NCBI GenBank assembly: GCA_025059045.1 | Contig: JANXEA010000014.1 | Coordinates: forward strand, 43,569 to 107,568 | From: Candidatus Bathyarchaeota archaeon | Lineage (GTDB): Archaea > Thermoproteota > Bathyarchaeia > Bathyarchaeales > DTEX01 | Reading direction: 5' to 3' | Length of the DNA stretch: 64,000 bases | Shown here: positions 2,733 to 62,617 of the stretch, piece after piece | How the letters are laid out: each line of letters begins with the position of its first letter | Position numbering within the stretch: position 1 is the stretch's first letter | Position numbers and translations under genes: made by a program | The notes under the pieces: model-generated | What the model saw: only the letters and a program-made list of their open reading frames with translations | What the model was told of the DNA's origin: nothing | The model's database searches: none

Positions 2733-4571
2733 TTAAAGGCGCTTTTGATCCGAAGCCTCACTTGCAGATACTACCTCTGCGCCCATAAGTTGGCCTATCT
2801 GAATCTCGTAGAGTTTAGCGTATAGTCCACCCTTAGACAAGAGTTCTTCATGAGTTCCTTCCTCGACTATCTTCCCCTTATCGATAACTATGACCCTGTC
2901 GGCTAGAAAGGTTGTAGATAGTCTATGCGCGATTATGATGCATGTCCTCCCTTTAAGAAGCTTCTTTAATGCCTCCTGTAATATGCTCTCTGTATAGGGA
3001 TCGACGCTGCTTGTCGCTTCGTCTAAGATAACTATCTTAGGCTGTCTTACAAGGGTTCTCGTTATATTTATAAGTTGTCTCTGTCCCACAGAAAGGTTTG
3101 CACCGCCTTCAGTGACGATTGTCTTTAACCCTTCAGGCAGGGAGTTTAGGAGTGGTTCCAAACCAAGACTATGAATAACCTCTATAATTTCATCCTCAGT
3201 CGCATCTGGCTTCCCATAGCGAATATTCTCTAGAACCGTATCCCGGAATAGCACAGGCTCCTGCGGGACTAATGATAATTGGCGTCTAAGCGACTTCAGT
3301 CTCATCTTCCTAACATCAACTCCATCTATGAGTATGCGACCCTTTTGCGGATCATATAACCTAAGCACAAGGTTCGCGAGGGTTGTTTTTCCCGCTCCGG
3401 TCGGCCCGACAACTGCAAGTATCTCTCCAGGCTTGATATGGAGGTTGAACCCATCAAATACCTTGGTCCCATTATATCCGAAGGTTACGTTCTCAATTCC
3501 TATTTCGCCATTCTTAATTTCTAGGTCAACCGCGTCCTCAGCCTCTGTAACCTTCGGCTTCGCCTCAAGATAATCAAATATTCTCTCCGCAGCAGCTAGG
3601 GCTGATTGGAGCATGTTATAGTAAATTGTCAAGGTTATTATCGGGTTGAAGAACATCTCGACGTAGCTGTAGAAGGCTATAAGCGTCCCAATAGTTGTCT
3701 CGTTGTTGATGACTAAGTAGCCGCCGTAAAATATGAGCAGGGCTATAGTAGCAGCCCTTATCAGGCTTAGTACTGGGCGAGTTAGAGCCATAACCAGGGT
3801 TGCCCTAAGATTTGCACGCATCGTCTCATAGCTGACCCTCTCAAAACGTCTAAGGTTCTCGCCTCCCCTCTCAGAGAAGGATTGAGAGACCTTCATCCCA
3901 GCAACCGTTTGTTCAATATTTGATGTCAGCTCGCCGACCTTAGCGCGAACCTCCCGATATGCTCTATAGCTCCTTCGAGCCAAGAAAATGACTGAGACAA
4001 CGATAAGCGGTATAAGCGACAATGTCACCAGTGTAAGATTTATGTTCAAGCTTAACATGGCTACCAGCGCACCGATTATCGTCAACGTGTTAAAAACGGC
4101 GTCGATGAAGCCTGTCGTAGCGGTCTGACCGACAGATTCCACGTCGCTTGTGAATCTGGATATAACCTGGCCAGCTGGCATCGTTGAGAAGAAAGAATAA
4201 TCTAGCTCCACAGAATGGGCAAACAGCATTGACCGCAAATCGTAAAGTAGCCTTTGAGTTAACCACGCGATACTGTAGCTTCTCAGAATACCTAAGGCCC
4301 AGCCGCAGAGAGATATGACTGCGACGAGAATCGAATAGAAGATCAAGGCATCAATATTCCTCGCCATTATTCCGTCGTCGACGATGCGCTTTCCAAAGTA
4401 CGGTCCTATCACATTCAGAATCAGGACGGCTGAGGCGACAACAGTGAAGAGCATCACTTTTATCTTATACCTCCAGATAAGCCTAAGGAGCTTCGCCATT
4501 ATCTTAGAGGGGGGACTCTTAGGTTTGCCCTCTCCGCCCTCACGCGCATACCTGCCTATCATCCACCCCAA
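2733..4571 (-). CDS. ABC exporter half-transporter (TMD-NBD fusion), consensus-site subunit
   Basis: 612 aa with an N-terminal 6-TM domain. NBD motifs: Walker A 'GPTGAGKTT', Q-loop 'VPQEP', deviant signature 'LSVGQ', Walker B plus catalytic Glu 'IVILDEATS', H-loop 'IIAHRLST'. It starts 4 nt after the upstream partner gene ends. Confidence 0.9.
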   Translation of the reverse strand: MGWMIGRYAREGGEGKPKSPPSKIMAKLLRLIWRYKIKVMLFTVVASAVLILNVIGPYFGKRIVDDGIMARNIDALIFYSILVAVISLCGWALGILRSYSIAWLTQRLLYDLRSMLFAHSVELDYSFFSTMPAGQVISRFTSDVESVGQTATTGFIDAVFNTLTIIGALVAMLSLNINLTLVTLSLIPLIVVSVIFLARRSYRAYREVRAKVGELTSNIEQTVAGMKVSQSFSERGGENLRRFERVSYETMRANLRATLVMALTRPVLSLIRAATIALLIFYGGYLVINNETTIGTLIAFYSYVEMFFNPIITLTIYYNMLQSALAAAERIFDYLEAKPKVTEAEDAVDLEIKNGEIGIENVTFGYNGTKVFDGFNLHIKPGEILAVVGPTGAGKTTLANLVLRLYDPQKGRILIDGVDVRKMRLKSLRRQLSLVPQEPVLFRDTVLENIRYGKPDATEDEIIEVIHSLGLEPLLNSLPEGLKTIVTEGGANLSVGQRQLINITRTLVRQPKIVILDEATSSVDPYTESILQEALKKLLKGRTCIIIAHRLSTTFLADRVIVIDKGKIVEEGTHEELLSKGGLYAKLYEIQIGQLMGAEVVSASEASDQKRL

Positions 4572-4574
4572 TGT

Positions 4575-6320
4575 CTACTTAACCTCCCGTCTCTCCTGAT
4601 GTGCGAACTGTGCATTGTAGATTCTCGCATATACGCCTCCAAGCCGCATGAGATCTTCATGAGTCCCATCTTCGACTACCTTGCCATTATCCATGACAAT
4701 TATCCTGTCGGCTAGCTTGAGTGTTGAAAGCCTCTGGGTCACAATGAATGTTGTTCTCCCTTCTATGAGCTTTTTCAGCGCCTCAACTACCGTAGCTTCG
4801 GTCTCGGCGTCAAGGTTAGAAGTTGGATCATCAAGTATTAGGATCCTTGGATTCAATATAAGCGTCCTTGCTATTGAGAGCCTCTGTCTCTGCCCTCCGG
4901 AGAGTGTTACGCCTCTCTCCGCCACGTCTGTCTCATAGCCTTTAGGCAAACTTTCTATGAATTCATGTATGCCAGCTGCCTTAGCGGCTTCGACAACCTC
5001 GCTCATAGAGGCGCCTGGCTTCCCATATGTTATATTATCCTTTACTGTGCCAGCGAAGAGCAACACATCCTGATGAACTATGCCAATATTCCTTCTGAGA
5101 GACTTGACCTTAACATTCCTGACGTCTACACCATCTATCAGTATGCGCCCCTTTTGAGGATCATAAAATCTGGGTATCATTTTTATCAGCGTCGACTTGC
5201 CAGAGCCTGTAGGTCCGACTATCGCAACCTTCTCACCTGGTTTTACGTCAAGATTAACGTCCACCAAAACGGGTTTGCTTGCATCATACCCGAATGTAAC
5301 ATCCTCAAATCTTACATGGCCCCTCACATCCCTAAGATCGAGTGCATCAGGCTCCTCCTTAACCTCAGGCTCCATATCCATTATGTCAAATATCCTTGAA
5401 GCTGATACAGATGCCCTCTGATAATCAAGAACAAAGAACCCTAGACCAACAAGAGGTCTGTTAAGCATGGCTAGGTAGAGAAGGAATGCTGCGATGTCTC
5501 CTATACTCATGATCCCTGCAATAGCCCTTGAACCGCCATATAGAAATACTGAGACCTGGATGGCGGCTGATATTAGACCGATTGACGGCCATGAGACCGA
5601 AGCGTACTTTTGAAAACGCATATTCAAACCGTAAATTTTGTCTAGATTAGCTTTGAATGTCTTCTCGAAAATGTCCTCCACCGCCAAGGCCTTCAAAACT
5701 TTGACTGTAGAGGTATATTCTTGGACAGTGCTGTTGAATTGGCTCATGGCTATCCAGTTCTCTTCAAGAATCGGGAAGACCTTACGATTGAAGAGAATTG
5801 CGACCAACGCCAGCAGGGGGATAAGAGACATCGCGACAATTGTCAACTCCACATTTATGCTTAGCAGTATGTAAACGGCTATTGTCGACGAGAAAACCGC
5901 GTCCAAAAGCGGCATAGTTGCAAAGCTTATGAAACGATTCAGGTTGTCCATATCATTTGTTACCCTCACAATTATCTCGCCGATCTCAGCTCGATCATAG
6001 AAGCCGTACGAAAGCTCATGAAGATGCTTGTATAGGTCTAATCTTAGGCGATATATTGTTCTCTGCGCTATAAGCTCGAAAATGTAACGTACAAAAAAAG
6101 CCGCCACACCCTCAAGGAAAGTTAATAGAATAACCAGCAATGAAAGGGGCAAAAGCTTACTGGGATCATACGCAACGACAGAATTAAGAAGATCTCGAAC
6201 ATACCAGGGGATCATCATGGCCAGACATGTAGAAGCAAGCATCAGGGCAAGACCTAGCGTGAGAAACCTCCAGCCACTAACAACGTAGCTGAAAACCCTT
6301 AGTATAGATGATCTGGCCAT
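4575..6320 (-). CDS. ABC exporter half-transporter (TMD-NBD fusion), degenerate-site subunit
   Basis: 581 aa. Motifs: Walker A 'GPTGSGKST' and canonical signature 'LSGGQRQR'. Walker B reads 'ILILDDPTS' (catalytic Glu replaced by Asp) and the H-loop reads 'FIVTQRLST' (His replaced by Gln). It is the first gene of the pair. Confidence 0.9.
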   Translation of the reverse strand: MARSSILRVFSYVVSGWRFLTLGLALMLASTCLAMMIPWYVRDLLNSVVAYDPSKLLPLSLLVILLTFLEGVAAFFVRYIFELIAQRTIYRLRLDLYKHLHELSYGFYDRAEIGEIIVRVTNDMDNLNRFISFATMPLLDAVFSSTIAVYILLSINVELTIVAMSLIPLLALVAILFNRKVFPILEENWIAMSQFNSTVQEYTSTVKVLKALAVEDIFEKTFKANLDKIYGLNMRFQKYASVSWPSIGLISAAIQVSVFLYGGSRAIAGIMSIGDIAAFLLYLAMLNRPLVGLGFFVLDYQRASVSASRIFDIMDMEPEVKEEPDALDLRDVRGHVRFEDVTFGYDASKPVLVDVNLDVKPGEKVAIVGPTGSGKSTLIKMIPRFYDPQKGRILIDGVDVRNVKVKSLRRNIGIVHQDVLLFAGTVKDNITYGKPGASMSEVVEAAKAAGIHEFIESLPKGYETDVAERGVTLSGGQRQRLSIARTLILNPRILILDDPTSNLDAETEATVVEALKKLIEGRTTFIVTQRLSTLKLADRIIVMDNGKVVEDGTHEDLMRLGGVYARIYNAQFAHQERREVK

Positions 6321-7837: not shown

Positions 7838-9688
7838 GTGCATGTAATGAGCGTTGCGAAACCAGTGGTCGAGTATGTCAACGCCATTAAGACCGAGAAG
7901 AGCTTATCCGCATCATTAGACACTTTCAAAAGGCTTATCAAATACCAGAAGCCTTACACTCACTTTCTGATTCTCATAGCCGCCCTTTCCGTTCTAAGAT
8001 CTTACCTTTTCACACTCGAACCACTCTACACTTCACAGATTATTGACTTGGTAGTTATAGGCGGGAATGTAGGTGTACTACCTGTCCTCATACTTAAAAT
8101 ATTGATCGCCGTAGTCTCATTCGGCATCGTAAACTTCTTGATAACATATCTCCATGGCTACTCGGCGCAACTAGTTATCAGAGACCTTAGATCCGACTAC
8201 TATTATTCGTTGCAGGACAAGTCATTCAGGTTTTATGACTCAGTCGCTGTGGGCGATCTGGTTTCCCGTGCCACGATGGATCTCCAGCCAGTTGAAGGCT
8301 TTCTAAGGTCTTGGGTTGGAACCCTAGGTAATGCTGTATTCACCGTAATCATCGTCTTTGGGACTATGTATTCTATAAGTCCAATTATGAGTATAATGTC
8401 AATTGTTCCCATGATCCTGGTATTCTACTTTACAAGTCAACTCTGGATGAAGACGATGCCGCTCTTCAGGAAAATGATGCTCATCTTGGGAAGACTCGGT
8501 GCGTATATACAGCAGAATATTATTGGAATGAGGGTTGTTCGGATTTTCCAAAGAGAAAAAGAGATGGAGGAAGGGTTTAAGCAGGTTGAGGAGGTCTATG
8601 TCAACACTGCCATCACGGCAGGGAGAATCCAATCTATTTATGCCCCATCCCCGCAGGCGATACTAACACTCGGAATAGTCATGATCTACCTTTACGGAGG
8701 AAACATGATAGCTTCTCCAGGGCGCCTGTTGACCATAGGCGAGCTTACCCTTTTTTCAAGGTATATGATGAGGTTGAGTTTTCCTCTTCGCGATCTAGGT
8801 CAGCTTGTCGGGACCTGGATAAACGCTTCAGCTGGCCTTGAAAGAATCTATGAAATTATGGATCTACCGGTGGATGTTAAAGACGAATTCAACGCGCAAG
8901 ATATCTCCATCAAGTATGGCGAAGTCGTATTTGAGAATGTAACCTTCGGATATGACAAGAATAGACCTGTACTTAAGAAAATAAGTTTCAAGGTTAAGCC
9001 CGGAGAGAAAATAGCCATTCTAGGTGCAACTGGATCTGGAAAAACTACGCTAGTCTACCTAATTCCAAGATTTTATGACGTTGACTCTGGAAGTATAATT
9101 ATTGACGGGGTCAACGTGAAGAAGTTTAAATTGTCCTCGCTGAGAAGGCAGATAGGCTTAGTTCTACAGGACGTCTTCATATTCACTGGAACCATTAGAG
9201 ATAACATCGCATTTGGGAACCCAAACGCCTCAATGGACTCTATCATCAGAGCTGCAAAACTGGCCAGGATCCACGACTTTATCGAGTCGCTGCCAGAGGG
9301 ATACAATACCATAGTTGGAGAGAGAGGGGTAACCCTGTCTGGCGGTCAGAGACAGAGAATAACAATTGCCAGAGCGTTATTAACTGATCCTAAAATCCTC
9401 ATACTTGACGATTCATTATCATTCGTGGATGCTAAAACCGAGCAGGAGATTCAGGAAGCCATAGAGGAGGCTATGAAGGGAAGGACATGCTTCATAATTG
9501 CGCAGAGACTTTCCACGATAAAGAATGCCGACAGGATAATGGTTCTCGATGACGGTGAGATCGTCGAGTTTGGAACTCACGAAGAACTATTGGCGAAGGG
9601 AGGTATCTACAAAAAGATTTATGAGACTCAGTTCCTTGAAAAGGCGCCTCCTGAAATCTTAGAGAGGGAGATAACTGTACATGTCTAG
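7838..9688 (+). CDS. ABC exporter half-transporter (TMD-NBD fusion), degenerate-site subunit
   Basis: 616 aa. Motifs: Walker A 'GATGSGKTT', signature 'LSGGQRQR', Walker B 'ILILDDSLS' (Glu to Asp) and H-loop 'FIIAQRLST' (His to Gln). It overlaps the next gene by 8 nt (ATGTCTAG). Confidence 0.9.
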   Translation: MHVMSVAKPVVEYVNAIKTEKSLSASLDTFKRLIKYQKPYTHFLILIAALSVLRSYLFTLEPLYTSQIIDLVVIGGNVGVLPVLILKILIAVVSFGIVNFLITYLHGYSAQLVIRDLRSDYYYSLQDKSFRFYDSVAVGDLVSRATMDLQPVEGFLRSWVGTLGNAVFTVIIVFGTMYSISPIMSIMSIVPMILVFYFTSQLWMKTMPLFRKMMLILGRLGAYIQQNIIGMRVVRIFQREKEMEEGFKQVEEVYVNTAITAGRIQSIYAPSPQAILTLGIVMIYLYGGNMIASPGRLLTIGELTLFSRYMMRLSFPLRDLGQLVGTWINASAGLERIYEIMDLPVDVKDEFNAQDISIKYGEVVFENVTFGYDKNRPVLKKISFKVKPGEKIAILGATGSGKTTLVYLIPRFYDVDSGSIIIDGVNVKKFKLSSLRRQIGLVLQDVFIFTGTIRDNIAFGNPNASMDSIIRAAKLARIHDFIESLPEGYNTIVGERGVTLSGGQRQRITIARALLTDPKILILDDSLSFVDAKTEQEIQEAIEEAMKGRTCFIIAQRLSTIKNADRIMVLDDGEIVEFGTHEELLAKGGIYKKIYETQFLEKAPPEILEREITVHV

Positions 9689-11501
9689 CCCGTTCGGCGT
9701 CTTCTCGAAAGCTGAGGAGACAAGAAAAAGGACTGTTCCGGACAGGGTACTGATCCTGCGAATGTATGATTACGCTAAACCTTACAGGAGAAACTTAGCG
9801 GTTGGCGCGATAACCATAGTTCTAACAGCACTCACAGGGCTACTTTCACCTTACCTGCACAAGGTTGCGATAGACCAGATTATTCAGCCTGGAAACCTTA
9901 TTGGTTTCCTCTGGTGGGTCCCCCTATTCATCCTTGTTACCCTAGCTAACTTCTTCTTCCAATATATTCAGCTCTTTCAGATGAGAATAGTAGGCGAAAA
10001 GGTTGTCGCTAGGATGAGAGACGAAATGATCCACAAGCTGCAGATAATCTCTCTAAGATACTTCTCAGAGGGCGAGATTGGGAGAATTCTCTCGAGGCCT
10101 GTGAATGACGCCAACACTGTCAGAATCTTCCTGAGAATGGGCCTGACAAGCATAATCCAGGATACGGCTTCCATATTAGGCGCTTTGATCATAATATTCT
10201 CTTTGAATGTGAAGCTCGCCCTGCTTGCGGTCGCCGTTCTACCGTTTGCCGTGACGTTGGCTTGGCTTCTCGGAAAAGTCTCCAGGGCAGCCTATAGAGA
10301 CATGCTCTCAACCCTAGGAGGCCTAACATCAAGGATTCAAGAAAACCTATCAGGCATGAAGGTGATTAAATCGTTCGTTCAGGAGGAGAATGCCCTTGAA
10401 GAGTTTTCTACCGTCCAAGACAAGACTGTAAAGGCGAGTTTAAGGACCATAAGAATCTCAGCCGCTTACCAGCCGATCATACTCTACCTGAGGATAGCTG
10501 GGACAGCCTTGATCCTCTGGTATGGATCGCTAATGGTTTTAGGAGGAGAGATCACCGTAGGAACACTGGTAGCATTCATTGAATACCAGTTCTCATACTT
10601 CATGCCTCTAGTCGATTTGGTTTCCGTATACGACCAATACCAGTCCGCGATGGCCGCTATAGAAAGGATGTTCGATCTTATAGACACGAATGTTGAAGTT
10701 GGGGAAGCCCCGCCCGAGGAAGCCATAGAAATAAGCAGCATTGAAGAAGTCACATTCGAAAATGTCACATTTGGATATGACCCGAGGATACCAGTCGTCA
10801 AGAATGTAAGTTTCAGCCTTAAAAAACCTTATAAGCTGGCGATAGTCGGCCCCACAGGCGCAGGTAAGAGCACAATAATTAACCTCTTAGCGAGATTCTA
10901 TGATCCGCTCGAAGGCAGAATATTAATCAATGGCTATGACCTAAGGAAGATTAAGATTTCATCTCTCCGCGATAAGATGAAGATAGTTCTTCAGGACTCA
11001 TTCCTATTTCCAATGAGCGTAAAGGACAATATAAGGTTTGGAAATCCAGAGGCTTCGGATGAAGAGGTCGTTGAAGCAGCGAAAGCTGTCGGAGCGCATG
11101 AGTTTATAATGAAACTTCCCGGCGGATACGACTATATCATACAGGAAGGCTCCTCGAATATCTCGATCGGACAGAGACAACTCATAAGCTTTGCAAGGAC
11201 GCTTCTAATGAACCCTCAGCTGCTGATCCTCGACGAAGCAACATCAAGTATAGACCCCTACACTGAGCTTGTGGTTCAGAACGCCCTAAAGAAGCTTCTT
11301 GAGAATAGGCTTGCCATAATAATAGCACATAGACTCTCAACCATAAGGCTCTGCAATGAGATCATTGTTTTAGATCAAGGCAGAGTAGTAGAAAGGGGGA
11401 CGCATAAGGAACTTATGGAGAAGGGCGGGATATACAGTGCTTTCTACCGGATGCAATTCAAAGAGGAGAAGGGTCTGGAGATCGCGGCTAGAATTGGTTA
11501 G
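9681..11501 (+). CDS. ABC exporter half-transporter (TMD-NBD fusion), consensus-site subunit
   Basis: 606 aa. Motifs: Walker A 'GPTGAGKST', deviant signature 'ISIGQRQL', Walker B 'LLILDEATS' and H-loop 'IIAHRLST'. Confidence 0.9.
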   Translation: MSSPFGVFSKAEETRKRTVPDRVLILRMYDYAKPYRRNLAVGAITIVLTALTGLLSPYLHKVAIDQIIQPGNLIGFLWWVPLFILVTLANFFFQYIQLFQMRIVGEKVVARMRDEMIHKLQIISLRYFSEGEIGRILSRPVNDANTVRIFLRMGLTSIIQDTASILGALIIIFSLNVKLALLAVAVLPFAVTLAWLLGKVSRAAYRDMLSTLGGLTSRIQENLSGMKVIKSFVQEENALEEFSTVQDKTVKASLRTIRISAAYQPIILYLRIAGTALILWYGSLMVLGGEITVGTLVAFIEYQFSYFMPLVDLVSVYDQYQSAMAAIERMFDLIDTNVEVGEAPPEEAIEISSIEEVTFENVTFGYDPRIPVVKNVSFSLKKPYKLAIVGPTGAGKSTIINLLARFYDPLEGRILINGYDLRKIKISSLRDKMKIVLQDSFLFPMSVKDNIRFGNPEASDEEVVEAAKAVGAHEFIMKLPGGYDYIIQEGSSNISIGQRQLISFARTLLMNPQLLILDEATSSIDPYTELVVQNALKKLLENRLAIIIAHRLSTIRLCNEIIVLDQGRVVERGTHKELMEKGGIYSAFYRMQFKEEKGLEIAARIG

Positions 11502-18713: not shown

Positions 18714-19211
18714 TTATCTTGGCTGCATGCTTAGCCCTGTTCTAAGACCAAAGATCCGGCTCAATATGGAACTTGAAAAGTAGGAGCATATAATATACCA
18801 GAGAAATAGCTGCAATGGGTAGGGTGGGAAGGGGCTTATGAAGGGAACCCAGAATGGAACATAGGCAACGCCGACTGTGCCATAAATGGAAAAAAGAAGG
18901 AACCATGCGCTAAGATATAACGATGCGAGCGTCATGGATCCTATGATCTGACGCTTAAGCCTTCTCGACTCTATCTGATTGATAATTTTCTCCTGTTTCT
19001 TAACTTTTGACATGAGTTTCTTGTCCCCAGTCTTCTTAGCCCTCTCTTTTTCTGCGTTAAACCTGTTAATCTCATCCTGCCACGCTGCTAACTGTTTGGG
19101 ATTCATGAGCGCTCGATTCACCAGCATCGTGATTAGGAAGAGGAGAAAAGTCACGCCGAGTATAAGCAATGTTGAAAACGGCGGGATAAGTATCTGCTCT
19201 GCTATCGACAT
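18714..19211 (-). CDS. DUF106 / EMC3-TMCO1-like membrane protein (archaeal Oxa1-superfamily candidate)
   Basis: 165 aa. Layout is TM, then a basic coiled loop ('AEKERAKKTGDKKLMSKVKKQEK'), then two TM segments. It lies immediately downstream of secY. Confidence 0.6.
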   Translation of the reverse strand: MSIAEQILIPPFSTLLILGVTFLLFLITMLVNRALMNPKQLAAWQDEINRFNAEKERAKKTGDKKLMSKVKKQEKIINQIESRRLKRQIIGSMTLASLYLSAWFLLFSIYGTVGVAYVPFWVPFISPFPPYPLQLFLWYIICSYFSSSILSRIFGLRTGLSMQPR

Positions 19212-19219
19212 ATCTTATC

Positions 19220-20650
19220 TCAGCCACCTAAGAATCTTCTCAGGACCGGATACATCTCTTCAATCTGCTCCCTCATTAGCTGCTGGTAGATTTGATAGAC
19301 TATCCCAACGGAGAGCAGTATCCCCGTCCCAGTGCCGAAAGCGCCGAAGAAGTCGGCTAAGGCGGCCAGCAACCCAACGATCAATCCGCCCAATATAGTC
19401 ACTGTTGGAATATACCGCTTTAGTACGACCTCCACTGTTCTGTCCGATCGCCTGAATCCTGGTATCTGCATCCCCGAATCTACAAGCTGCTTTGCGATTG
19501 TTCTCGGATCTATGCCTCCTACCTGAAGCCATATGTATGAGAATAGTATGCAGAAGGCGATTAAGAAGATTGCGTATACGATGTATCTAAGTGGATTCTC
19601 AATTACTTCTAGGAAGCCACGTGTCGGCGCTGTGACATAATATGCAAGGCCGTCTGTGGGAATTAGGTCTCCATCCTTAATTGTGAACTTGCCCAGCACG
19701 TTGATTAATGGTGCCCACTCGCTGTCCCTGAAGTGGCTCCAAAGGAGCTGGGACCAGACGTAGATGTTTCCGAAGAGGGCTGATGCGAAGATGACTGGAA
19801 GGTTTGAAACATAGAGTAGGCTGATTGGGTATCTCCCTCTGAAGCCTCGGAATGAGGCGTGAGCTATAGGAAGTTCAACCCTTATACCCTGCGCGTATAT
19901 AACAAAGAGGAAGATACCTACAGTTGTTAGTAGGCCTACTATGCTGGGGTAACCGCTGGGGCTGAGAACGAGGTGCTGAAGGGACCCACCCGTTACCAAT
20001 GATTGTATCAGAGCCGATATGATGCCGTATCGTCTGACCGGCTCTTCTGTTCCGCCAACCTCTATTATCGAGAAGGAGTCAAGCATTATTCTCTGGGCCA
20101 CACCAGCGAGTATGAAGAGGCTGATTCCGCTTCCAATACCCCAACCTTTCTGGATCATTTCGTCTAGCAGCATTAGGATTAGCCCAGCGAATAGCAGTTG
20201 GAAGAAGATTACGATTGCCTGCTTTTGGTTTAGGGTGCCGTAGAAACCGCCCAATAGGTAGGCTGAGGCCTGAAATGCTGTGAAGAATAGGGAGAAGACT
20301 TTGCTTGCACCAGTGAATAGGGAGCGGTCCTCCGGGTTTGAAAAGTCAACATTTATGATGCCCGATCCGGCTAACATTTGTAGTATGAGACCCGCAGTTA
20401 CGATGGGGCCGATCCCAAGCTCCATTAATGTTCCTCTAGTTGAGGCGAATATCACCCTATAGTAGATGAGACCTTCACCTGTCGCGCCGGATAAACCATA
20501 AAGCGGAACTTCGCTCATAATAAGGTATATTATTACCGCAAGCGCCGTCCACAGTATTTTCTCGGTGAGACCCACCCTTCTCTCGGGCGCTTTAACCTCC
20601 GGAACCAAAACTATGAGGGGCCTGAAAGCGTTTAGGAACTTGCTAGTCAA
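19220..20650 (-). CDS. secY: Preprotein translocase subunit SecY
   Basis: 476 aa polytopic protein following uL15. The N-terminus 'LVPEVKAPERRVGLTEKILWT' and overall pattern are typical of archaeal SecY/Sec61alpha. Confidence 0.95.
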   Translation of the reverse strand: MTSKFLNAFRPLIVLVPEVKAPERRVGLTEKILWTALAVIIYLIMSEVPLYGLSGATGEGLIYYRVIFASTRGTLMELGIGPIVTAGLILQMLAGSGIINVDFSNPEDRSLFTGASKVFSLFFTAFQASAYLLGGFYGTLNQKQAIVIFFQLLFAGLILMLLDEMIQKGWGIGSGISLFILAGVAQRIMLDSFSIIEVGGTEEPVRRYGIISALIQSLVTGGSLQHLVLSPSGYPSIVGLLTTVGIFLFVIYAQGIRVELPIAHASFRGFRGRYPISLLYVSNLPVIFASALFGNIYVWSQLLWSHFRDSEWAPLINVLGKFTIKDGDLIPTDGLAYYVTAPTRGFLEVIENPLRYIVYAIFLIAFCILFSYIWLQVGGIDPRTIAKQLVDSGMQIPGFRRSDRTVEVVLKRYIPTVTILGGLIVGLLAALADFFGAFGTGTGILLSVGIVYQIYQQLMREQIEEMYPVLRRFLGG

Positions 20651-26348: not shown

Positions 26349-26693
26349 ATGAGAATAGAAAAAGAGAGATTCAAGAAAATGTTTCCACATCTGGCCGAAG
26401 AGATGGAGAAGGGCGAGCATTCTGTCACCATAACGTCAGTCAAATTCAATAATGAAGTTGCGGAAAATGCTCCTTCCCGAATGTTTGAGGGCTATGACCC
26501 AGATGTTATCGATTTTCTTAGAAGATGCGACAACGAGAAGCAAGCCGAGGAAATAATATCCTATCTAGAGATAAAAAAGGAAATCAGTGAGGAGTATGCT
26601 GAGAGGTTGAGAAAGCAGCTCAAAGAAAGAGGTGTCAGAAGCTTTGGTCCCAAAAAAGAAAATGATTACTACTTGAAAAAAGCAGGCTACTAA
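26349..26693 (+). CDS. Small charged hypothetical protein
   Basis: 114 aa, soluble and Glu/Lys-rich. It shares the strand with its neighbours and lies in a tight gap after the radical SAM gene. I can support no function. Confidence 0.5.
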   Translation: MRIEKERFKKMFPHLAEEMEKGEHSVTITSVKFNNEVAENAPSRMFEGYDPDVIDFLRRCDNEKQAEEIISYLEIKKEISEEYAERLRKQLKERGVRSFGPKKENDYYLKKAGY

Positions 26694-26858
26694 GCGAGTT
26701 TTAAAGGGTTAGATCAGCTATCCTCGGGTCTTCCCAGCATACATCACCCTACAAAAAAAATTCAAATCAATATCGCTTTGATTGAACGAGTAAGCTTAAA
26801 AAAGCAGAAGACGAAGATAGAACCCTATAAAACGCTTCAATGAAGAGGATGAAGAGAT

Positions 26859-28601
26859 TTGAATAAAATGTTGCCGACCTTATCCCGCCTGACTCTCGCA
26901 TCATTTATCTTCATAACATTCCTCTCACAATTTTTCCATTGTTCTCCCGCAAACCAGAACACGGAATACCCCTCCATCAGAATTGGCAGAGTTATAATTG
27001 TAGAGAATGGGGGCGCGTTAATAGTTAAGGACATATTCACATTGTCCACTAATCCGAATCAAGACATCGCCCAGATATCCAATTTCCAATATGGATTCAG
27101 CAGCGTTTACGCGCGAAATCTTCTCCAAGCCTTCTCAAACGACACCAAGGGAAAACTTGGATTGGATGTGATTGTTGGCGACGAATATTTCTGGCTGCGT
27201 ATCTCATTTTCCAAGCCAATTGATGTAAGCCGCGGAGGCGCTTACTCTTTCACTGTAACATCCATATTTAAGGACCTGATAATATATAATCAATCATGGT
27301 ATTCCCTAAACATTTCTCTCTACCCGATTCTTCAAACAGAAGCTGCTTCATGCAGTTTGACCGTCCTACTTCCCTCAGAAACCAGCATACTATATGCTCC
27401 GGAATCATTTACTATAGCTGAAGATGATGAGCATAAGATATTATCTCGAGAGATAACACCACTCAGCGCCCTCACAGATGAATCCCTCTACTTAGAATTC
27501 ACGTCAACACGATACAAATTGTTGGATATTGATGAACTACGCAGAACTGTGACGGTGGATCCATTAGGCAAGTTGACTGTAACGGACATTTATAGAATAT
27601 TTAACCGGGGAGCTGACTTCTCGTCAATCTCTTTCACCATACCTAAGAATGCCACGAGTATATATGCAGAGGACATATACGGTGCGATTCCTCAGTCTAA
27701 AATCTCCCAAAAAGATTCCGAAGAGTATATTGAAGTTGATATAAGGCTGACGGAGACGTTAGAAAAAGATAGGGTGCTGAAAATTTTGATATCATATCAG
27801 CTTCCATCCGATCTATATATTTCAAGGCTGGGATGGCAGGAGTACGTTTTGAATGTCACTATGATCAGGCCGGCTGAATGGATAATTGATAGATTCTCAG
27901 TGACCGTCCTACTTCCAGAGGGGGCTCAATATTTGAATTCGACCATTTCACCAATGGGGCCCATAAAACTGAGACAATGGTCTTTTATTCCTGAAATCGA
28001 ATTCGCCGCTGAGAATGTAACGATATCCTTTGAACGGTTTTTCCGTATTTCCTATGCATATTCGATCTTTTGGGCGTCCTTTAGACCTACACTCTGGACA
28101 GGCGTAGCGGCGATATTTGCATGTTTATTATTCGGTCTATATAGGGTATCTCACACCATCGCCACTGTTAAGGTGTCGATTTCCAAGGAATCTTTGAGAG
28201 GATTCGTTGAGACTTATGAGGAGAAGATAAGACTTAGGGCTGAGCTTGAATCGTTGGAGAGGCAGTCTGAGAAGGGTAAAATTTCTAGAAGAAAGTATAG
28301 GTTGCAGAGGAGCTCTTATGATGAGCAACTCTCGAAAGTTCAAAGGGATCTTTCTAGGTTGCGAAGAGAAGTTGAGATGGCGGGCGGTCCGTTTGTAGAG
28401 GGGTTGAAACGAATTGACAGGGCGGAGGCCGAAATTGAGGCTATGAACAAGAATATTGAGAACGTTGAGAAACAATTTATGAGAGGAGAGATTTCCTCTG
28501 AGGAGCGACGCAAACTGGTATCCGAGTATATGAGAATAAGGGAAAGGGCTGAACAGGCAATAGAGGATGTCTTATTAAGATTTCGTGAGATGATGGCTTA
28601 G
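26859..28601 (+). CDS. Type-I membrane glycoprotein candidate, ribophorin I / OST1-like architecture
   Basis: The likely start is the ATG at 26868 ('MLPTLSRLTLASFIFITFLSQFFHCSPA', a signal peptide). An ectodomain of about 390 aa carries 7 N-x-S/T sequons. One TM segment follows ('LWTGVAAIFACLLFGLY'), then a charged coiled-coil tail of about 150 aa. Co-linear motif matches to ribophorin I are listed in the finding. Confidence 0.55.
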   Translation: MNKMLPTLSRLTLASFIFITFLSQFFHCSPANQNTEYPSIRIGRVIIVENGGALIVKDIFTLSTNPNQDIAQISNFQYGFSSVYARNLLQAFSNDTKGKLGLDVIVGDEYFWLRISFSKPIDVSRGGAYSFTVTSIFKDLIIYNQSWYSLNISLYPILQTEAASCSLTVLLPSETSILYAPESFTIAEDDEHKILSREITPLSALTDESLYLEFTSTRYKLLDIDELRRTVTVDPLGKLTVTDIYRIFNRGADFSSISFTIPKNATSIYAEDIYGAIPQSKISQKDSEEYIEVDIRLTETLEKDRVLKILISYQLPSDLYISRLGWQEYVLNVTMIRPAEWIIDRFSVTVLLPEGAQYLNSTISPMGPIKLRQWSFIPEIEFAAENVTISFERFFRISYAYSIFWASFRPTLWTGVAAIFACLLFGLYRVSHTIATVKVSISKESLRGFVETYEEKIRLRAELESLERQSEKGKISRRKYRLQRSSYDEQLSKVQRDLSRLRREVEMAGGPFVEGLKRIDRAEAEIEAMNKNIENVEKQFMRGEISSEERRKLVSEYMRIRERAEQAIEDVLLRFREMMA

Positions 28602-28703
28602 AAGAGAATGGTAATTGAAGATTAACTAAAATTAATGGATATCTCCACAAAAAGTTTTTATTTCGGCGTATAGATTGACATCAGACCTAAAAGGTGGCAG
28701 AAG

Positions 28704-58251: not shown

Positions 58252-60180
58252 TTGAGTGCTCAAATCTTTTATCCGAGGCAGGAATATTTGCGCAGATGCT
58301 ACCTAATTAATGGATCTAATGAGAAGAACATTGTTAGACTACTCTTCTATAACCCAGAATTAGACGGCCTCATAGAGTTTGAGAATGAGAATTACAAACC
58401 ATACTTTTTCACAGTGCCGGATGTTAGCGGCGTGATCAGTGAGTCCCTGAAAGACCTTTCAGCAAATTTAAGCGTCGGGGAGAAGATTGATCTCTTCTCT
58501 GGAAAGCCTAGAAAGTTACTTAGGGTAGAGCTCTCAGATCCCTCTCAACTTCAAGTAGTCTCCAGGCTTCTCAGGAGCGGATGGGAAAGCGAGGTTCCCT
58601 ACGTGTCAAGCTACGTGTATGATAATGGGCTGGTTTTCGGCGCAATGCACACCATTGACGGAAAGCCCACAATAACAACAGACGTAGATGAGGACATCAA
58701 ACTAAGATTTCGGGAAAAGTTTTCAAGCCTTAGGGATGCTGACCCCCTCAAGTATGAGATGCTGGAATTCTGGTTCTCACTCTGCTCCCAGCCGATACCG
58801 CAGACCTCCCCCAACAAGCTAGGTTTACGGCAAGATATAGGCTATGAAAGCCTATACCTAGCATTCATGCTATCCCGCCTGGCTAACATCCCACTGCCAT
58901 CCGCGCTTTCAAGCCGCCAGGTCAGCGTATGGATAAAATCCATTCTCCACTCATACCTGAGAAGGAAGAATACCCTGATCCCAGCTGACAACGAGCTTAG
59001 GAAGGGCGAAACTCCAAGAAGCATTCCAGGCGGCTTAACCTTGCCACCTAAACCTGGAACATACTTCAACACCTACGTCCTAGACTTCGAGAGCCTATAC
59101 CCAAGCATCATCGACTCCTACAACCTGTCATATGAGACAATAGACTGCAACCACGGTGAATGCGCGGGGAATAGGGTTCCAGGCGCCAAGCACCATGTCT
59201 GCACGAGAAGGAGAGGCGTCTACTCCATACTAATCGGGGCTCTAAGAGATCTTAGAGTCCAATGGTTCAAGCCCATCTCGAGAGACCCAAAGATTCCTGA
59301 GGAGCAGAGGAGGCTGGCCGAAGCAGCATCAAGGCTCCTGAAGCTGATACTGGTCGCAAGCTACGGCGTTACAGTCAGAATAAGAGGACTAGCATGCCCA
59401 GCCCTTGCCGAATCAATAACAGCATACGGCAGATACGCCCTTAAGGAGAGTTGGAGCATCGCTGAGGAGATGGGGCTTGAACCGCTCTACGGCGACACCG
59501 ACTCACTCTTCATCAACAACCCCGATGAGGTTAGGGTACAGCAGCTCATAGGGGTGGTGAGAGAAAGGCTCCGCCTAGGCCTGGCTTTGGACAAGATCTA
59601 CAGCGTCTGCATCCTCACAAGAGCTATGAAAGCCTATTTCGGCGTCAGGAAGGACGGACAGCCGGATATCAAGGGCTTAACAGCTATAAAAGCCAACTCG
59701 CCAAACTTCATAAAGAACGTCTTCAACAAATGCGTCAGCCATCTCGTAAATGTTGAAAACTGGGCAGATCTTGAAGCGGCGAAGCAGGGGATGAGGCAGA
59801 CGGTGACGGACGCTATAGCGGATCTGAGAGCTGGAAGAATCCCGATAAGCGACCTCAAATATAATGTCAGACTGCATCTTGAGCCTCTGGAGAGAGCGGA
59901 GAGAGAGACGATGCATCAACCATACCAGTCCGCCATCCAATTCATGATGCTTGGTAAGGGTCTGCGGCATGGAGACATTGTCTCCTTTGTAAAGGTTAAG
60001 CCATTCACCTTCGCAGGGAAGGTCTTCACGGTTAAACCCTCCCACCTAGTAACGGATCTAAGAGAAGTTGACATAGAAAGTTATGTAAGAAACCTGAAGT
60101 CAGCCCTCAGCCAAGTCTTCAGGCCGATGGGCCTCTCCTTCGAGGATGAGCAGAAGAGGACGCTCGCCGACTTCATCTAG
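58252..60180 (+). CDS. Family B DNA polymerase, short exonuclease-deficient form (PolB2-like)
   Basis: 642 aa with motif A 'DFESLYPSII', a motif B-like 'KLILVASYG', motif C 'YGDTDS' and a TTG start. Only about 68 residues separate 'YVYDNGLVFG' from 'LSRLANIPL', where canonical PolBs carry Exo I-III. At the Exo III position it reads 'YESLY' instead of YxxxD. Confidence 0.8.
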   Translation: MSAQIFYPRQEYLRRCYLINGSNEKNIVRLLFYNPELDGLIEFENENYKPYFFTVPDVSGVISESLKDLSANLSVGEKIDLFSGKPRKLLRVELSDPSQLQVVSRLLRSGWESEVPYVSSYVYDNGLVFGAMHTIDGKPTITTDVDEDIKLRFREKFSSLRDADPLKYEMLEFWFSLCSQPIPQTSPNKLGLRQDIGYESLYLAFMLSRLANIPLPSALSSRQVSVWIKSILHSYLRRKNTLIPADNELRKGETPRSIPGGLTLPPKPGTYFNTYVLDFESLYPSIIDSYNLSYETIDCNHGECAGNRVPGAKHHVCTRRRGVYSILIGALRDLRVQWFKPISRDPKIPEEQRRLAEAASRLLKLILVASYGVTVRIRGLACPALAESITAYGRYALKESWSIAEEMGLEPLYGDTDSLFINNPDEVRVQQLIGVVRERLRLGLALDKIYSVCILTRAMKAYFGVRKDGQPDIKGLTAIKANSPNFIKNVFNKCVSHLVNVENWADLEAAKQGMRQTVTDAIADLRAGRIPISDLKYNVRLHLEPLERAERETMHQPYQSAIQFMMLGKGLRHGDIVSFVKVKPFTFAGKVFTVKPSHLVTDLREVDIESYVRNLKSALSQVFRPMGLSFEDEQKRTLADFI

Positions 60181-62527: not shown

Positions 62528-62617
62528 TGGGCCCGGGGCGATTCGAACGCCCGACCAACAGGTTTCTCATCCAGGCATTATGAGCCTGCCGCTCTAACCG
62601 TGCTGAGCTACGGGCCC
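62528..62617 (-). tRNA. Intron-containing tRNA with CAU anticodon (elongator Met or Ile2); CCA encoded at 62525-62527
   Basis: Reverse complement: GGGCCCG-TA-GCTC-AGCACGGTTA-GAGC-G-GCAGG-CT[CAT]A-(15-nt insert ATGCCTGGATGAGAA)-A-CCTGT-TGGTC-GGGCG-TTCGAAT-CGCCC-CGGGCCC-A-CCA. The insert sits at the canonical 37/38 position. Its ATGAG pairs with the CTCAT of the anticodon loop. Confidence 0.8.

What the first reader, a model, noticed from the sequence alone, without database searches (positions are those of the whole stretch)
26859..28601. Ribophorin I / OST1-like type-I membrane glycoprotein in an apparently TACK-type archaeon
Architecture: a signal peptide, then an ectodomain of about 390 aa with seven N-x-S/T sequons. 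A single TM segment follows. The protein ends in a Lys/Arg/Glu-rich coiled-coil cytoplasmic tail of about 150 aa. This is the layout of eukaryotic ribophorin I.

Several blocks are co-linear with human RPN1 as I remember it:
- 'SISFTIPKNATSIYAEDIYG' vs 'FKTILPAAAQDVYYRDEIG'.
- 'IEVDIR...ILISYQLP' vs 'VEMEIR...YIVGYNLP'. The spacing from the 'IP/LP' block is about 55-57 residues in both.
- 'IIDRFSVTVLLPEGAQ' vs 'VIDSLTVKIILPEGAK'. This lies 35-36 residues after the 'LP' block in both.
- The TM segment follows about 60-70 residues later in both.

To my knowledge, archaeal ribophorin I homologues have been highlighted mainly in Asgard genomes as eukaryotic signature proteins. This window instead carries a Sulfolobus-type SSB and other TACK-like traits. 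No AglB/STT3 or OST3/6-like gene is adjacent.
Basis: partly seen in the sequence, partly recalled or inferred. Interest (0 to 1): 0.7.

Follow-up and report, generated by a model that had tools for sequence, protein, structure and literature searches.

The report
Ribophorin I (OST1) homologue in Bathyarchaeia
The gene encodes a genuine, complete archaeal counterpart of ribophorin I/OST1, the helper subunit of the eukaryotic N-glycosylation machine, in a Bathyarchaeia (TACK) archaeon; this is a real but only modestly new result, because this "eukaryotic signature" protein is usually credited to Asgard archaea alone but has already been reported in TACK.

Summary
The ORF at 26859-28601 (+, 580 aa) exists exactly as described: signal peptide, ~370-aa ectodomain with seven sequons, one TM helix and a 149-aa K/R/E-rich tail.

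The ribophorin I reading is supported by four independent tests:
- Pfam Ribophorin_I scores above its gathering cut-off.
- The family profile hits human RPN1 (E 8e-11).
- The same profile hits the crystallised cytoplasmic domain of Lokiarchaeon OST1, 8whn (E 2e-12).
- An AlphaFold model's eight best PDB matches are all Ost1/RPN1 chains (E 3e-28 to 2e-20), and the tail modelled alone superposes on 8whn (TM 0.85, 2.1 A).

The organism is a Bathyarchaeia (TACK) MAG. The gene belongs to a large family with conserved synteny in 35 Bathyarchaeia loci, continuous with Odinarchaeia proteins. No AglB/STT3 or OST3/6 gene lies in the window or next to any homologue.

Most likely it is an AglB accessory subunit whose tail docks ribosomes, but that is inferred, not shown.

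Novelty is limited. One 2024 paper already states OST1 occurs in TACK, and one related GenBank record is already named OST subunit 1. This protein itself is labelled "hypothetical".

The parts
26826..26831 (+). TATAAA, a TATA-box-like hexamer 33 nt upstream of the TTG start and 42 nt upstream of the ATG at codon 4. It suggests the gene has its own promoter and a leaderless or short-leader mRNA.
   Evidence: Read directly from the sequence. Not tested against shuffles. The intergenic gap to the upstream gene is 165 nt.
26859..28601 (+). Complete coding sequence of the OST1/ribophorin I homologue (580 aa plus stop).
   Evidence: ORF list. Identical to MCS7120691.1 and MDW8048100.1, both 'hypothetical protein'. 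Pfam Ribophorin_I above its cut-off. Foldseek top eight hits are RPN1/Ost1.
26859..26951 (+). N-terminal signal peptide region (about aa 1-31; hydrophobic helix at 6-25, followed by ...HCSPANQ).
   Evidence: AlphaFold helix 6-25 followed by a low-confidence linker at 26-35; sequence. The cleavage site was not predicted with a dedicated tool.
26964..27512 (+). Extracellular beta-sandwich lobe 1 (about aa 36-218; boundary approximate). Carries sequons N94, N144 and N151.
   Evidence: AlphaFold strands 39-215 at pLDDT about 90. Aligned to the luminal domain of human and yeast Ost1/RPN1 over 444-457 columns. Sequons.
27513..28064 (+). Extracellular beta-sandwich lobe 2 (about aa 219-402). This is the most RPN1-like part, with the IPKNAT...YQLP...LLPEGAQ blocks and sequons N264, N332, N360 and N386. 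N386 is a sequon in 75 of 150 family members.
   Evidence: Pfam best stretch aa 254-423 against profile 257-432 of 437. phmmer to human RPN1 277-381. Profile hit 255-435 against RPN1 273-460. Sequon conservation.
28065..28151 (+). Single transmembrane helix (aa 403-431), opening with the family signature FWASFRPTLW.
   Evidence: Hydropathy. AlphaFold helix 403-431. W405-A-S-F-R-P410 is invariant in alignment A1. The profile alignment continues through the RPN1 TM segment.
28152..28598 (+). Cytoplasmic four-helix bundle (aa 432-580; helices about 443-471, 477-506, 510-541 and 547-579). Homologous to the ribosome-binding cytosolic domain of Asgard OST1 and metazoan RPN1.
   Evidence: Profile against 8whn_A: E 1.7e-12 over residues 20-158 of 161. 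Tail-only AlphaFold model: pLDDT 93.2, pTM 0.81. Foldseek's only significant hit is 8whn, TM 0.85/0.87, rmsd 2.1 A over 142 columns.
28655..28663 (+). T-rich tract TTTTTATTT, 54 nt after the stop codon; a possible archaeal transcription stop.
   Evidence: Read directly from the sequence. Not tested.
26349..26693 (+). DUF2095 gene (114 aa), a conserved co-directional upstream neighbour. Listed as context only; it is not shown to be a functional partner.
   Evidence: Pfam PF09868, E 7e-25. Upstream on the same strand in all 29 of the 35 Bathyarchaeia loci that have it, and within 600 nt in 18. Absent next to the divergent homologues in L036 and L038.

Best explanation
Shown: the gene encodes a full-length orthologue of eukaryotic ribophorin I/Ost1 and Asgard OST1, in a Bathyarchaeia (TACK) archaeon. 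It is a type I membrane protein. Two beta-sandwich lobes sit outside the cell and are probably themselves N-glycosylated. One helix crosses the cytoplasmic membrane. A four-helix bundle sits in the cytoplasm.

Inferred by homology: the TM helix and membrane-proximal lobe pack against the catalytic oligosaccharyltransferase AglB (the STT3 homologue, encoded elsewhere in the genome). The outer lobes hold or present emerging polypeptide near the AglB active site. The basic cytoplasmic bundle docks a translating ribosome sitting on SecYEG. N-glycosylation would then be coupled to translocation at the cell membrane, as RPN1 does in the mammalian OST-A/Sec61 translocon.
For: Identity:
- Pfam Ribophorin_I: 38.8 bits against a cut-off of 25.
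- phmmer to human RPN1: E 0.0034. Family profile to RPN1: E 8.2e-11. Family profile to 8whn: E 1.7e-12.
- Full-length AlphaFold model: pLDDT 84. Its eight best PDB matches are all RPN1/Ost1 chains, E 3e-28 to 2e-20. They include 8b6l_O and 6s7o_E, aligned over about 590 columns that include the cytosolic domain.
- The tail modelled alone matches only 8whn: TM 0.85/0.87, rmsd 2.1 A.

Topology:
- Sequons are enriched outside, 7 observed against 2.2 expected (P about 0.001), and 9.1 against 3.7 family-wide. The tail has none.

Selection:
- The family is large: 1071 clusters at 50% identity with E<=1e-3, and 327 with E<=1e-30.
- It sits in a conserved syntenic block in 35 Bathyarchaeia loci.
- Several tail Arg/Tyr positions are conserved: Y453, R477, Y480, R542 and R574 are invariant in A1.

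Function by analogy:
- Carilo et al. 2024 (PMC11417166) showed that the homologous MK-D1 OST1 cytoplasmic domain pulls down ribosomes, as does the human one, whereas its extracellular domain does not.
Against: - No genomic link to glycosylation was found. There is no AglB/STT3, OST3/6 or glycosyltransferase gene in the 64-kb window, within 10 kb in any of the 35 Bathyarchaeia loci, or on the two divergent contigs.
- Archaeal AglB is generally described as a single-subunit enzyme (general knowledge), so a partner is not required for catalysis.
- No complex, ribosome binding or phenotype has been shown for any TACK homologue. Even for Asgard, function in N-glycosylation is flagged as unproven (PMC8993221).
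- Sequence identity to RPN1 is low (14-15% in the structural alignments).
- The presence of AglB in this particular genome could not be checked.
Confidence: 0.75

Rival explanations
1. It is a true OST1 homologue but works independently of AglB. For example, it could be a membrane ribosome receptor or translocon accessory factor next to SecYEG, or an extracellular holdase for secreted proteins. The link to the oligosaccharyltransferase would then have arisen later, in the Asgard/eukaryote line.
For: There is no gene linkage to AglB or any glycosylation gene in any context examined. The tail, which is the ribosome-binding module in homologues, is the best conserved part of the family: 65% mean column identity in A4 against 50% for the whole protein in A1. 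The gene sits among translation genes (S3Ae, SerRS, ribosomal proteins), with SecY and an EMC3/TMCO1-like insertase 6-8 kb away.
Against: In every system where the protein has been placed structurally, it is an integral OST subunit (PDB hits). The membrane-proximal lobe and TM helix that contact the OST core are conserved in sequence with RPN1. Lack of operon linkage is normal for archaeal membrane complexes, and it is equally true of the Odinarchaeia homologue.
Confidence: 0.2
2. The gene is not ancestral to Bathyarchaeia but was acquired by horizontal transfer from Asgard archaea. Its presence in a TACK genome would then say nothing about the age of the OST1 module.
For: Asgard (Odinarchaeia) proteins are full-length hits of the Bathyarchaeia profile, E about 8e-64. 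In a crude NJ tree they fall among sequences that include NCBI Bathyarchaeota-labelled proteins, so the two groups are not cleanly separated.
Against: - The window protein nests in a clade holding all Bathyarchaeia-labelled loci.
- Within that class the protein has diverged to 26-39% identity with the window protein, while keeping the same syntenic block S3Ae-(radical SAM)-DUF2095-OST1-(ferredoxin)-deacetylase-ADSL. This argues for long vertical residence.
- GC content around the gene is unremarkable.
- An ancient transfer cannot be excluded. The NJ tree is star-like, unrooted in effect, and has no eukaryotes.
Confidence: 0.2
3. It is an unrelated S-layer or adhesin-type beta-sandwich glycoprotein with a coiled-coil tail, and the resemblance to RPN1 is coincidental.
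For: The weak coiled-coil hits (CCDC-167, SMC-like, ASRP) show the tail is compositionally coiled-coil-like. Generic beta-sandwich proteins such as aminopeptidase N and streptococcal adhesins appear lower in the Foldseek list, at E about 1e-5.
Against: Pfam, profile-to-PDB and two independent fold searches all single out Ost1/RPN1 and 8whn, with a gap of many orders of magnitude to the next fold. All coiled-coil family hits are below their curated cut-offs.
Confidence: 0.02

Closest known systems
Asgard archaeal OST1, e.g. Candidatus Prometheoarchaeum syntrophicum MK-D1 OST1 (WP_147663064.1; cytoplasmic domain crystal structure PDB 8WHN; Carilo et al. 2024, PMC11417166)
   Same: - The overall layout is the same: signal peptide, about 400-aa extracellular domain, one TM helix and a four-helix cytoplasmic bundle of about 150 aa.
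- The tail is homologous in sequence (profile E 1.7e-12) and superposes in structure (TM 0.85, rmsd 2.1 A).
- An Odinarchaeia protein is a full-length hit of the Bathyarchaeia profile.
   Different: - The host is a TACK (Bathyarchaeia) archaeon, not Asgard.
- Identity is only 18% to 8whn and about 24% to the Odinarchaeia protein.
- Ribosome binding has been shown for the MK-D1 domain but not for this one.
- Whether the other OST subunits reported in Asgard (Ost3/6, Ost4, Ost5 and others) exist in this genome is unknown.
Mammalian ribophorin I (RPN1), subunit of OST-A/OST-B (PDB 6S7O, 6S7T, 8B6L, 8PN9)
   Same: - Pfam family PF04597.
- Co-linear sequence blocks in luminal lobe 2 that run on through the TM helix.
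- The same two-lobe luminal fold plus TM plus cytosolic helical bundle; best Foldseek hits E 3e-28 to 1e-22.
   Different: - About 14% identity.
- It sits in the cytoplasmic membrane rather than the ER.
- The partner would be AglB rather than STT3A/B.
- Large rmsd (23-25 A) over the full chain shows that the relative orientation of the domains in the model differs from, or is undetermined relative to, the cryo-EM structures.
Yeast Ost1p (PDB 6EZN, 6C26, 7OCI, 8AGB)
   Same: The luminal two-lobe fold and TM helix match: E about 2e-21, TM 0.59-0.62 normalised to the target, rmsd 7-8 A over about 450 columns.
   Different: The yeast Ost1 chains in these entries are about 430-440 residues and the alignments stop at about 450 columns, so the window protein's cytoplasmic four-helix bundle has no counterpart in them. 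There was no sequence-level hit to yeast Ost1.

Membership tests
Ribophorin I / OST1 (Pfam PF04597) | Significant match to the curated family profile, above its gathering score | tested here: met
   38.8 bits against a cut-off of 25, E 7.8e-10, two stretches; the best covers aa 254-423 against profile 257-432 of 437. PF04597 is also precomputed for 8 of the 12 closest homologues.
Ribophorin I / OST1 (Pfam PF04597) | Type I topology: cleavable N-terminal signal, large luminal/extracellular domain, single TM helix near the C-terminal third | tested here: met
   Hydropathy and the AlphaFold helices 6-25 and 403-431. Sequons are enriched only in the ectodomain. Signal-peptide cleavage itself was not predicted with a dedicated tool.
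Ribophorin I / OST1 (Pfam PF04597) | Two-lobed beta-sandwich luminal fold, as in solved Ost1/RPN1 structures | tested here: met
   Foldseek's top eight PDB hits are all Ost1/RPN1 chains (human 8b6l_O, 6s7o_E, 6s7t_E, 8pn9_E; yeast 7oci_A, 6ezn_A, 8agb_E, 6c26_1), E 3e-28 to 2e-20. The next fold is at 5e-6.
Ribophorin I / OST1 (Pfam PF04597) | Physical membership of an oligosaccharyltransferase complex with STT3/AglB | not testable with these tools
   No multimer prediction or experimental data were available. No AglB lies in the window or near any homologue.
RPN1/Asgard-OST1-type cytosolic ribosome-binding domain (PDB 8WHN type) | C-terminal four-helix bundle of about 140 aa, homologous to the 8WHN / human RPN1 cytosolic domain | tested here: met
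   Profile E 1.7e-12 over residues 20-158 of 161. Tail-only model pLDDT 93.2. 8whn is the only significant structural hit, TM 0.85/0.87, rmsd 2.1 A.
RPN1/Asgard-OST1-type cytosolic ribosome-binding domain (PDB 8WHN type) | Direct binding to ribosomes | not testable with these tools
   Shown only for the MK-D1 and human domains (PMC11417166). Here there is only a basic composition (K+R 33 of 149, net charge +4) and conserved Arg positions.
Multi-subunit eukaryote-like OST (Ost1 with Ost3/6, Ost4, Ost5 and others) | Co-occurrence of other non-catalytic OST subunits in the same genome | tested here: inconclusive
   No OST3_OST6 or other OST family was found in any of the 56 window ORFs of 100 aa or more. 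That covers only 64 kb of the genome. Very small subunits (Ost4, Ost5) would be missed by the 100-aa ORF cut-off.

The most novel reading that the evidence does not exclude
A complete OST1, including the ribosome-docking four-helix bundle, was already present in the common ancestor of TACK and Asgard archaea and has been vertically retained across Bathyarchaeia. If so, ribophorin I is not an Asgard-specific 'eukaryotic signature protein'. A ribosome-SecYEG-OST coupling (co-translational N-glycosylation at the plasma membrane) would then predate the Asgard lineage, and Bathyarchaeia would offer a second, independent archaeal system in which to study it.
Probability: 0.4. Interest if true: 0.6.

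Novelty: new member of a known kind. Interest (0 to 1): 0.4.

Why it matters
Ribophorin I/Ost1 is one of the translocon-linked proteins used to argue that Asgard archaea alone carry the precursors of the eukaryotic ER machinery. Eme et al. 2023 describe prokaryotic Ost1 homologues as those "previously reported in Asgard archaea".

This work shows a structurally complete OST1, including the ribosome-binding tail, that is widespread and syntenically stable in Bathyarchaeia. That pushes the likely origin of this module deeper into the archaea. It also cautions against reading the protein as an Asgard-specific signature.

In practice, a large set of "hypothetical proteins" can now be named, and a concrete experiment is available: tail-ribosome pull-down and AglB co-purification.

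The gain is incremental. TACK occurrence has already been stated in print (PMC11417166), and the domain is detectable with standard Pfam annotation.

Tried and rejected
1. NCBIfam gave only sub-threshold coiled-coil noise (ASRP, SMC) for the tail. The Pfam CCDC-167 hit, 26.9 bits against a cut-off of 27, is the same artefact.

2. Two of the three word-indexed homologue searches were largely wasted (with the 46-sequence alignment, with ectodomain-only sequences). The only gain was the Odinarchaeia label for P0154. So I could not tabulate the family's taxonomic spread beyond Bathyarchaeia and Odinarchaeia.

3. The genome-contig scan uses two short peptide patterns ([IV][FL]WASFRPT and one other), so it only reaches the close subfamily. 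Absence from other TACK classes must not be inferred from it.

4. I looked for an OST partner hidden in the roughly 1.2-kb gap between DUF2095 and OST1 that eight of the nine checked loci show. By my reading of its sequence it is a radical-SAM/HhH-type protein, not OST-related; it was not profile-scanned.

5. DUF2095 has no solved relative in the PDB by sequence. I treat its linkage as conserved gene order rather than a demonstrated partnership, because the whole block (S3Ae, deacetylase, ADSL) is syntenic and DUF2095 is absent next to the divergent homologues.

6. The NJ tree is star-like and has no eukaryotes. I use it only to place the window protein within the Bathyarchaeia-labelled clade, not to decide between vertical descent and transfer.

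7. The organism name of KYH37769.1 was truncated in the output ('[Candidatus ...'). Its contig is from Guaymas Basin sediment, and I could not confirm its phylum.

8. The 2017 Asgard paper (doi 10.1038/nature21031) is not held in the library.
Full report
**1. The observation**

- There are seven N-x-S/T sequons (N94, 144, 151, 264, 332, 360, 386). All lie in the ectodomain and none in the tail.
- Shuffling the ectodomain gives 2.2 +/- 1.3 sequons (P about 0.001). Across 80 family members the mean is 9.1 observed against 3.7 shuffled.
- Only one segment is strongly hydrophobic, at about residues 405-431.
- The tail is 149 aa with K11, R22, E25 and D4.

**2. Identity**

Four independent lines agree.
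- (a) Pfam PF04597 Ribophorin_I scores 38.8 bits against a gathering score of 25, E 7.8e-10. NCBIfam has nothing but sub-threshold coiled-coil noise.
- (b) A profile of the 12 closest homologues (alignment A1) hits two PDB sequences. Human RPN1 scores E 8.2e-11 (profile 255-435 against RPN1 273-460, running through the TM helix). 8whn_A, 'Ribophorin 1 superfamily protein', scores E 1.7e-12 over residues 20-158 of 161. 8WHN is the crystal structure of the cytoplasmic domain of OST1 from the Lokiarchaeon MK-D1 (PMC11417166).
- (c) The AlphaFold2 model of the whole protein has mean pLDDT 84.1, and about 90 over both beta-rich lobes and the tail. Its eight best PDB matches are all RPN1/Ost1 chains from human OST-A, OST-B and the Sec61-TRAP-OST translocon, and from yeast OST, at E 3e-28 to 2e-20. 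The next fold class, the aminopeptidase N / LTA4H N-domain, is at 5e-6.
- (d) The tail modelled alone (aa 436-580; pLDDT 93.2, pTM 0.81; four helices) has a single significant PDB match, 8whn. That match has TM-score 0.85/0.87 and rmsd 2.1 A over all 142 columns. The next hit is a designed bundle at E 0.035 and TM 0.41.

**3. Organism and family**

The protein is 100% identical to MCS7120691.1 ([Candidatus Bathyarchaeota archaeon]) and MDW8048100.1 (RMJ07_00230, [Nitrososphaerota archaeon]). Both are named 'hypothetical protein'.

A pattern-seeded scan of one genome per GTDB species found 35 loci. All are from Bathyarchaeia/Bathyarchaeota MAGs except one labelled Thermoproteota. They are 25-39% identical to the window protein. 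Bathyarchaeota belongs to kingdom Thermoproteati, i.e. TACK.

An exhaustive HMMER search of 1.84 billion representative proteins found 1071 clusters at E<=1e-3, 593 at E<=1e-10 and 327 at E<=1e-30.

Among the top 150, P0154 is an Odinarchaeia (Asgard) protein: a full-length match at E about 8e-64, about 24% identical. So the Bathyarchaeia and Asgard proteins form one continuous family.

A crude NJ tree places the window protein inside the clade containing every Bathyarchaeia-labelled locus, nearest L001-L004 and L028. The Odinarchaeia sequences fall in a second, more divergent group. That group also holds two NCBI Bathyarchaeota-labelled proteins and P0158. The tree is star-like and lacks eukaryotes, so I draw nothing further from it.

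**4. Surroundings**

All 56 ORFs of 100 aa or more in the window, plus the 60-aa ferredoxin, were scanned against Pfam.

The gene's neighbours, in order:

| Position relative to the gene | Neighbour |
|---|---|
| Upstream | seryl-tRNA synthetase |
| Upstream | ribosomal protein S3Ae |
| Upstream | a radical SAM protein |
| Immediately upstream | DUF2095 |
| Immediately downstream | a 2x[4Fe-4S] ferredoxin |
| Downstream | a deacetylase-family gene on the opposite strand |
| Downstream | adenylosuccinate lyase |

- No STT3/AglB, OST3_OST6, glycosyltransferase or dolichol-pathway family occurs anywhere in the 64 kb.
- No WWDxG motif exists in any frame of the window, and none (WWD[YWF]G) in the ORFs of the 35 related loci.
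- None of the genes called on the Guaymas Basin contig carrying P0158, or on the Odinarchaeia contig, hits an STT3 family.
- The block S3Ae-(radical SAM)-DUF2095-OST1-(ferredoxin)-deacetylase-ADSL is syntenic across Bathyarchaeia. DUF2095 is upstream on the same strand in all 29 loci that have it, and within 600 nt in 18. The deacetylase is present in 24 loci and ADSL in 16.
- Where a gap of about 1.2 kb separates DUF2095 from OST1, it holds what reads as a radical-SAM/HhH-type protein.
- A TATAAA hexamer lies 33 nt before the TTG, and a T-rich tract follows the stop. The gene probably has its own promoter.

**5. Mechanism**

Shown: the fold, the topology and the homology of all three modules (ectodomain, TM helix, cytoplasmic bundle) to OST1/RPN1.

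Inferred from the homologues:
- In eukaryotic OST structures, Ost1/RPN1 is an integral non-catalytic subunit (the PDB entries).
- In the mammalian OST-A translocon the RPN1 cytosolic bundle contacts the ribosome.
- The homologous MK-D1 domain pulls down ribosomes (PMC11417166).

My best reading is that the Bathyarchaeia protein is an accessory subunit of AglB at the cytoplasmic membrane. Its tail would dock translating ribosomes at SecYEG, coupling translocation to N-glycosylation. Its sequon-rich ectodomain would itself be glycosylated.

I put identity at over 0.95 and this mechanism at roughly 0.55. The main alternative, at about 0.2, is a ribosome-receptor or translocon-accessory role that does not involve AglB. 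The total lack of genomic linkage to glycosylation genes leaves that open.

**6. Comparison with what is known, and novelty**

Ribophorin I in archaea is usually presented as an Asgard feature. Eme et al. [quoted passage not shown]

However, Carilo et al. [quoted passage not shown] A divergent family member from Guaymas Basin sediment, KYH37769.1, already carries the GenBank name 'dolichyl-diphosphooligosaccharide--protein glycosyltransferase subunit 1'. PF04597 is also among the precomputed Pfam hits for this very protein.

I found no paper in the library that describes the Bathyarchaeia family, its synteny, or its intact 8WHN-type tail.

The finding is therefore a correct identification of a new, currently unannotated member of a known kind. 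It has some evolutionary interest, because it bears on the ESP status of ribophorin I and the age of the ribosome-docking module, but it is not a new kind of system.

**7. Verdict**

- The novelty class is 'new member of a known kind'.
- Interest is 0.4.

The most novel reading not excluded is that a complete OST1 predates the TACK/Asgard split. I give it probability about 0.4 and interest about 0.6 if true.

Noticed in passing
window 26349-26693 (+): A DUF2095 gene (114 aa, function unknown) lies directly upstream of the OST1 homologue. It keeps that position and strand in all 29 of the 35 Bathyarchaeia loci that have it. It is better conserved (49-70% identity) than OST1 itself. It has no PDB relative by sequence.
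   Followed up: partly
window 18714-20650 (-): SecY (with the Sec61 plug domain) is followed by an EMC3/TMCO1-like membrane insertase (165 aa) at the end of a ribosomal-protein cluster (S5, L30, L15), 6-8 kb upstream of the OST1 homologue. The translocon genes are nearby but not adjacent. This proximity is not seen in the related loci, within their 10-kb flanks.
   Followed up: partly
window 2733-6320 (-) and 7838-11501 (+): Two divergently oriented pairs of full-length ABC exporter genes (each with ABC_membrane plus ABC_tran domains, 581-616 aa) flank a mandelate racemase/enolase-family gene. Their substrate is unknown.
   Followed up: no
   Followed up: yes
window 62528-62617 (-): One of the three tRNA hits spans 90 nt, against 73-75 nt for the other two. 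This suggests an intron or a long variable arm.
   Followed up: no
L029 and L034 (both on CP070835.1, Bathyarchaeota bin106 chromosome): One complete Bathyarchaeota genome carries two OST1-like genes about 110 kb apart. The second (L034) is only 25% identical to the window protein over residues 75-443, so some lineages have a divergent paralogue.
   Followed up: no
P0119 / P0168 (metagenome representatives; cluster): Some family members carry extra N-terminal sequence ahead of the OST1 ectodomain. P0119 has an extension of about 85 aa, and its cluster-mate P0168 is 851 aa. This hints at domain-fusion variants.
   Followed up: no
window residue N386 (nt 28014-28022) and alignment of 150 family members: The membrane-proximal sequon N386-V-T is a sequon at the same column in 75 of 150 family members, and is invariant N / near-invariant T among the 12 closest. 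The other six sequons are poorly conserved in position. This suggests one functionally important glycan site next to the TM helix.
   Followed up: partly
window 58252-60180 (+): A family B DNA polymerase ORF of only 642 aa, with the DNA_pol_B domain at residues 218-625. It is short for an archaeal PolB and may lack, or have a reduced, N-terminal exonuclease region.
   Followed up: no
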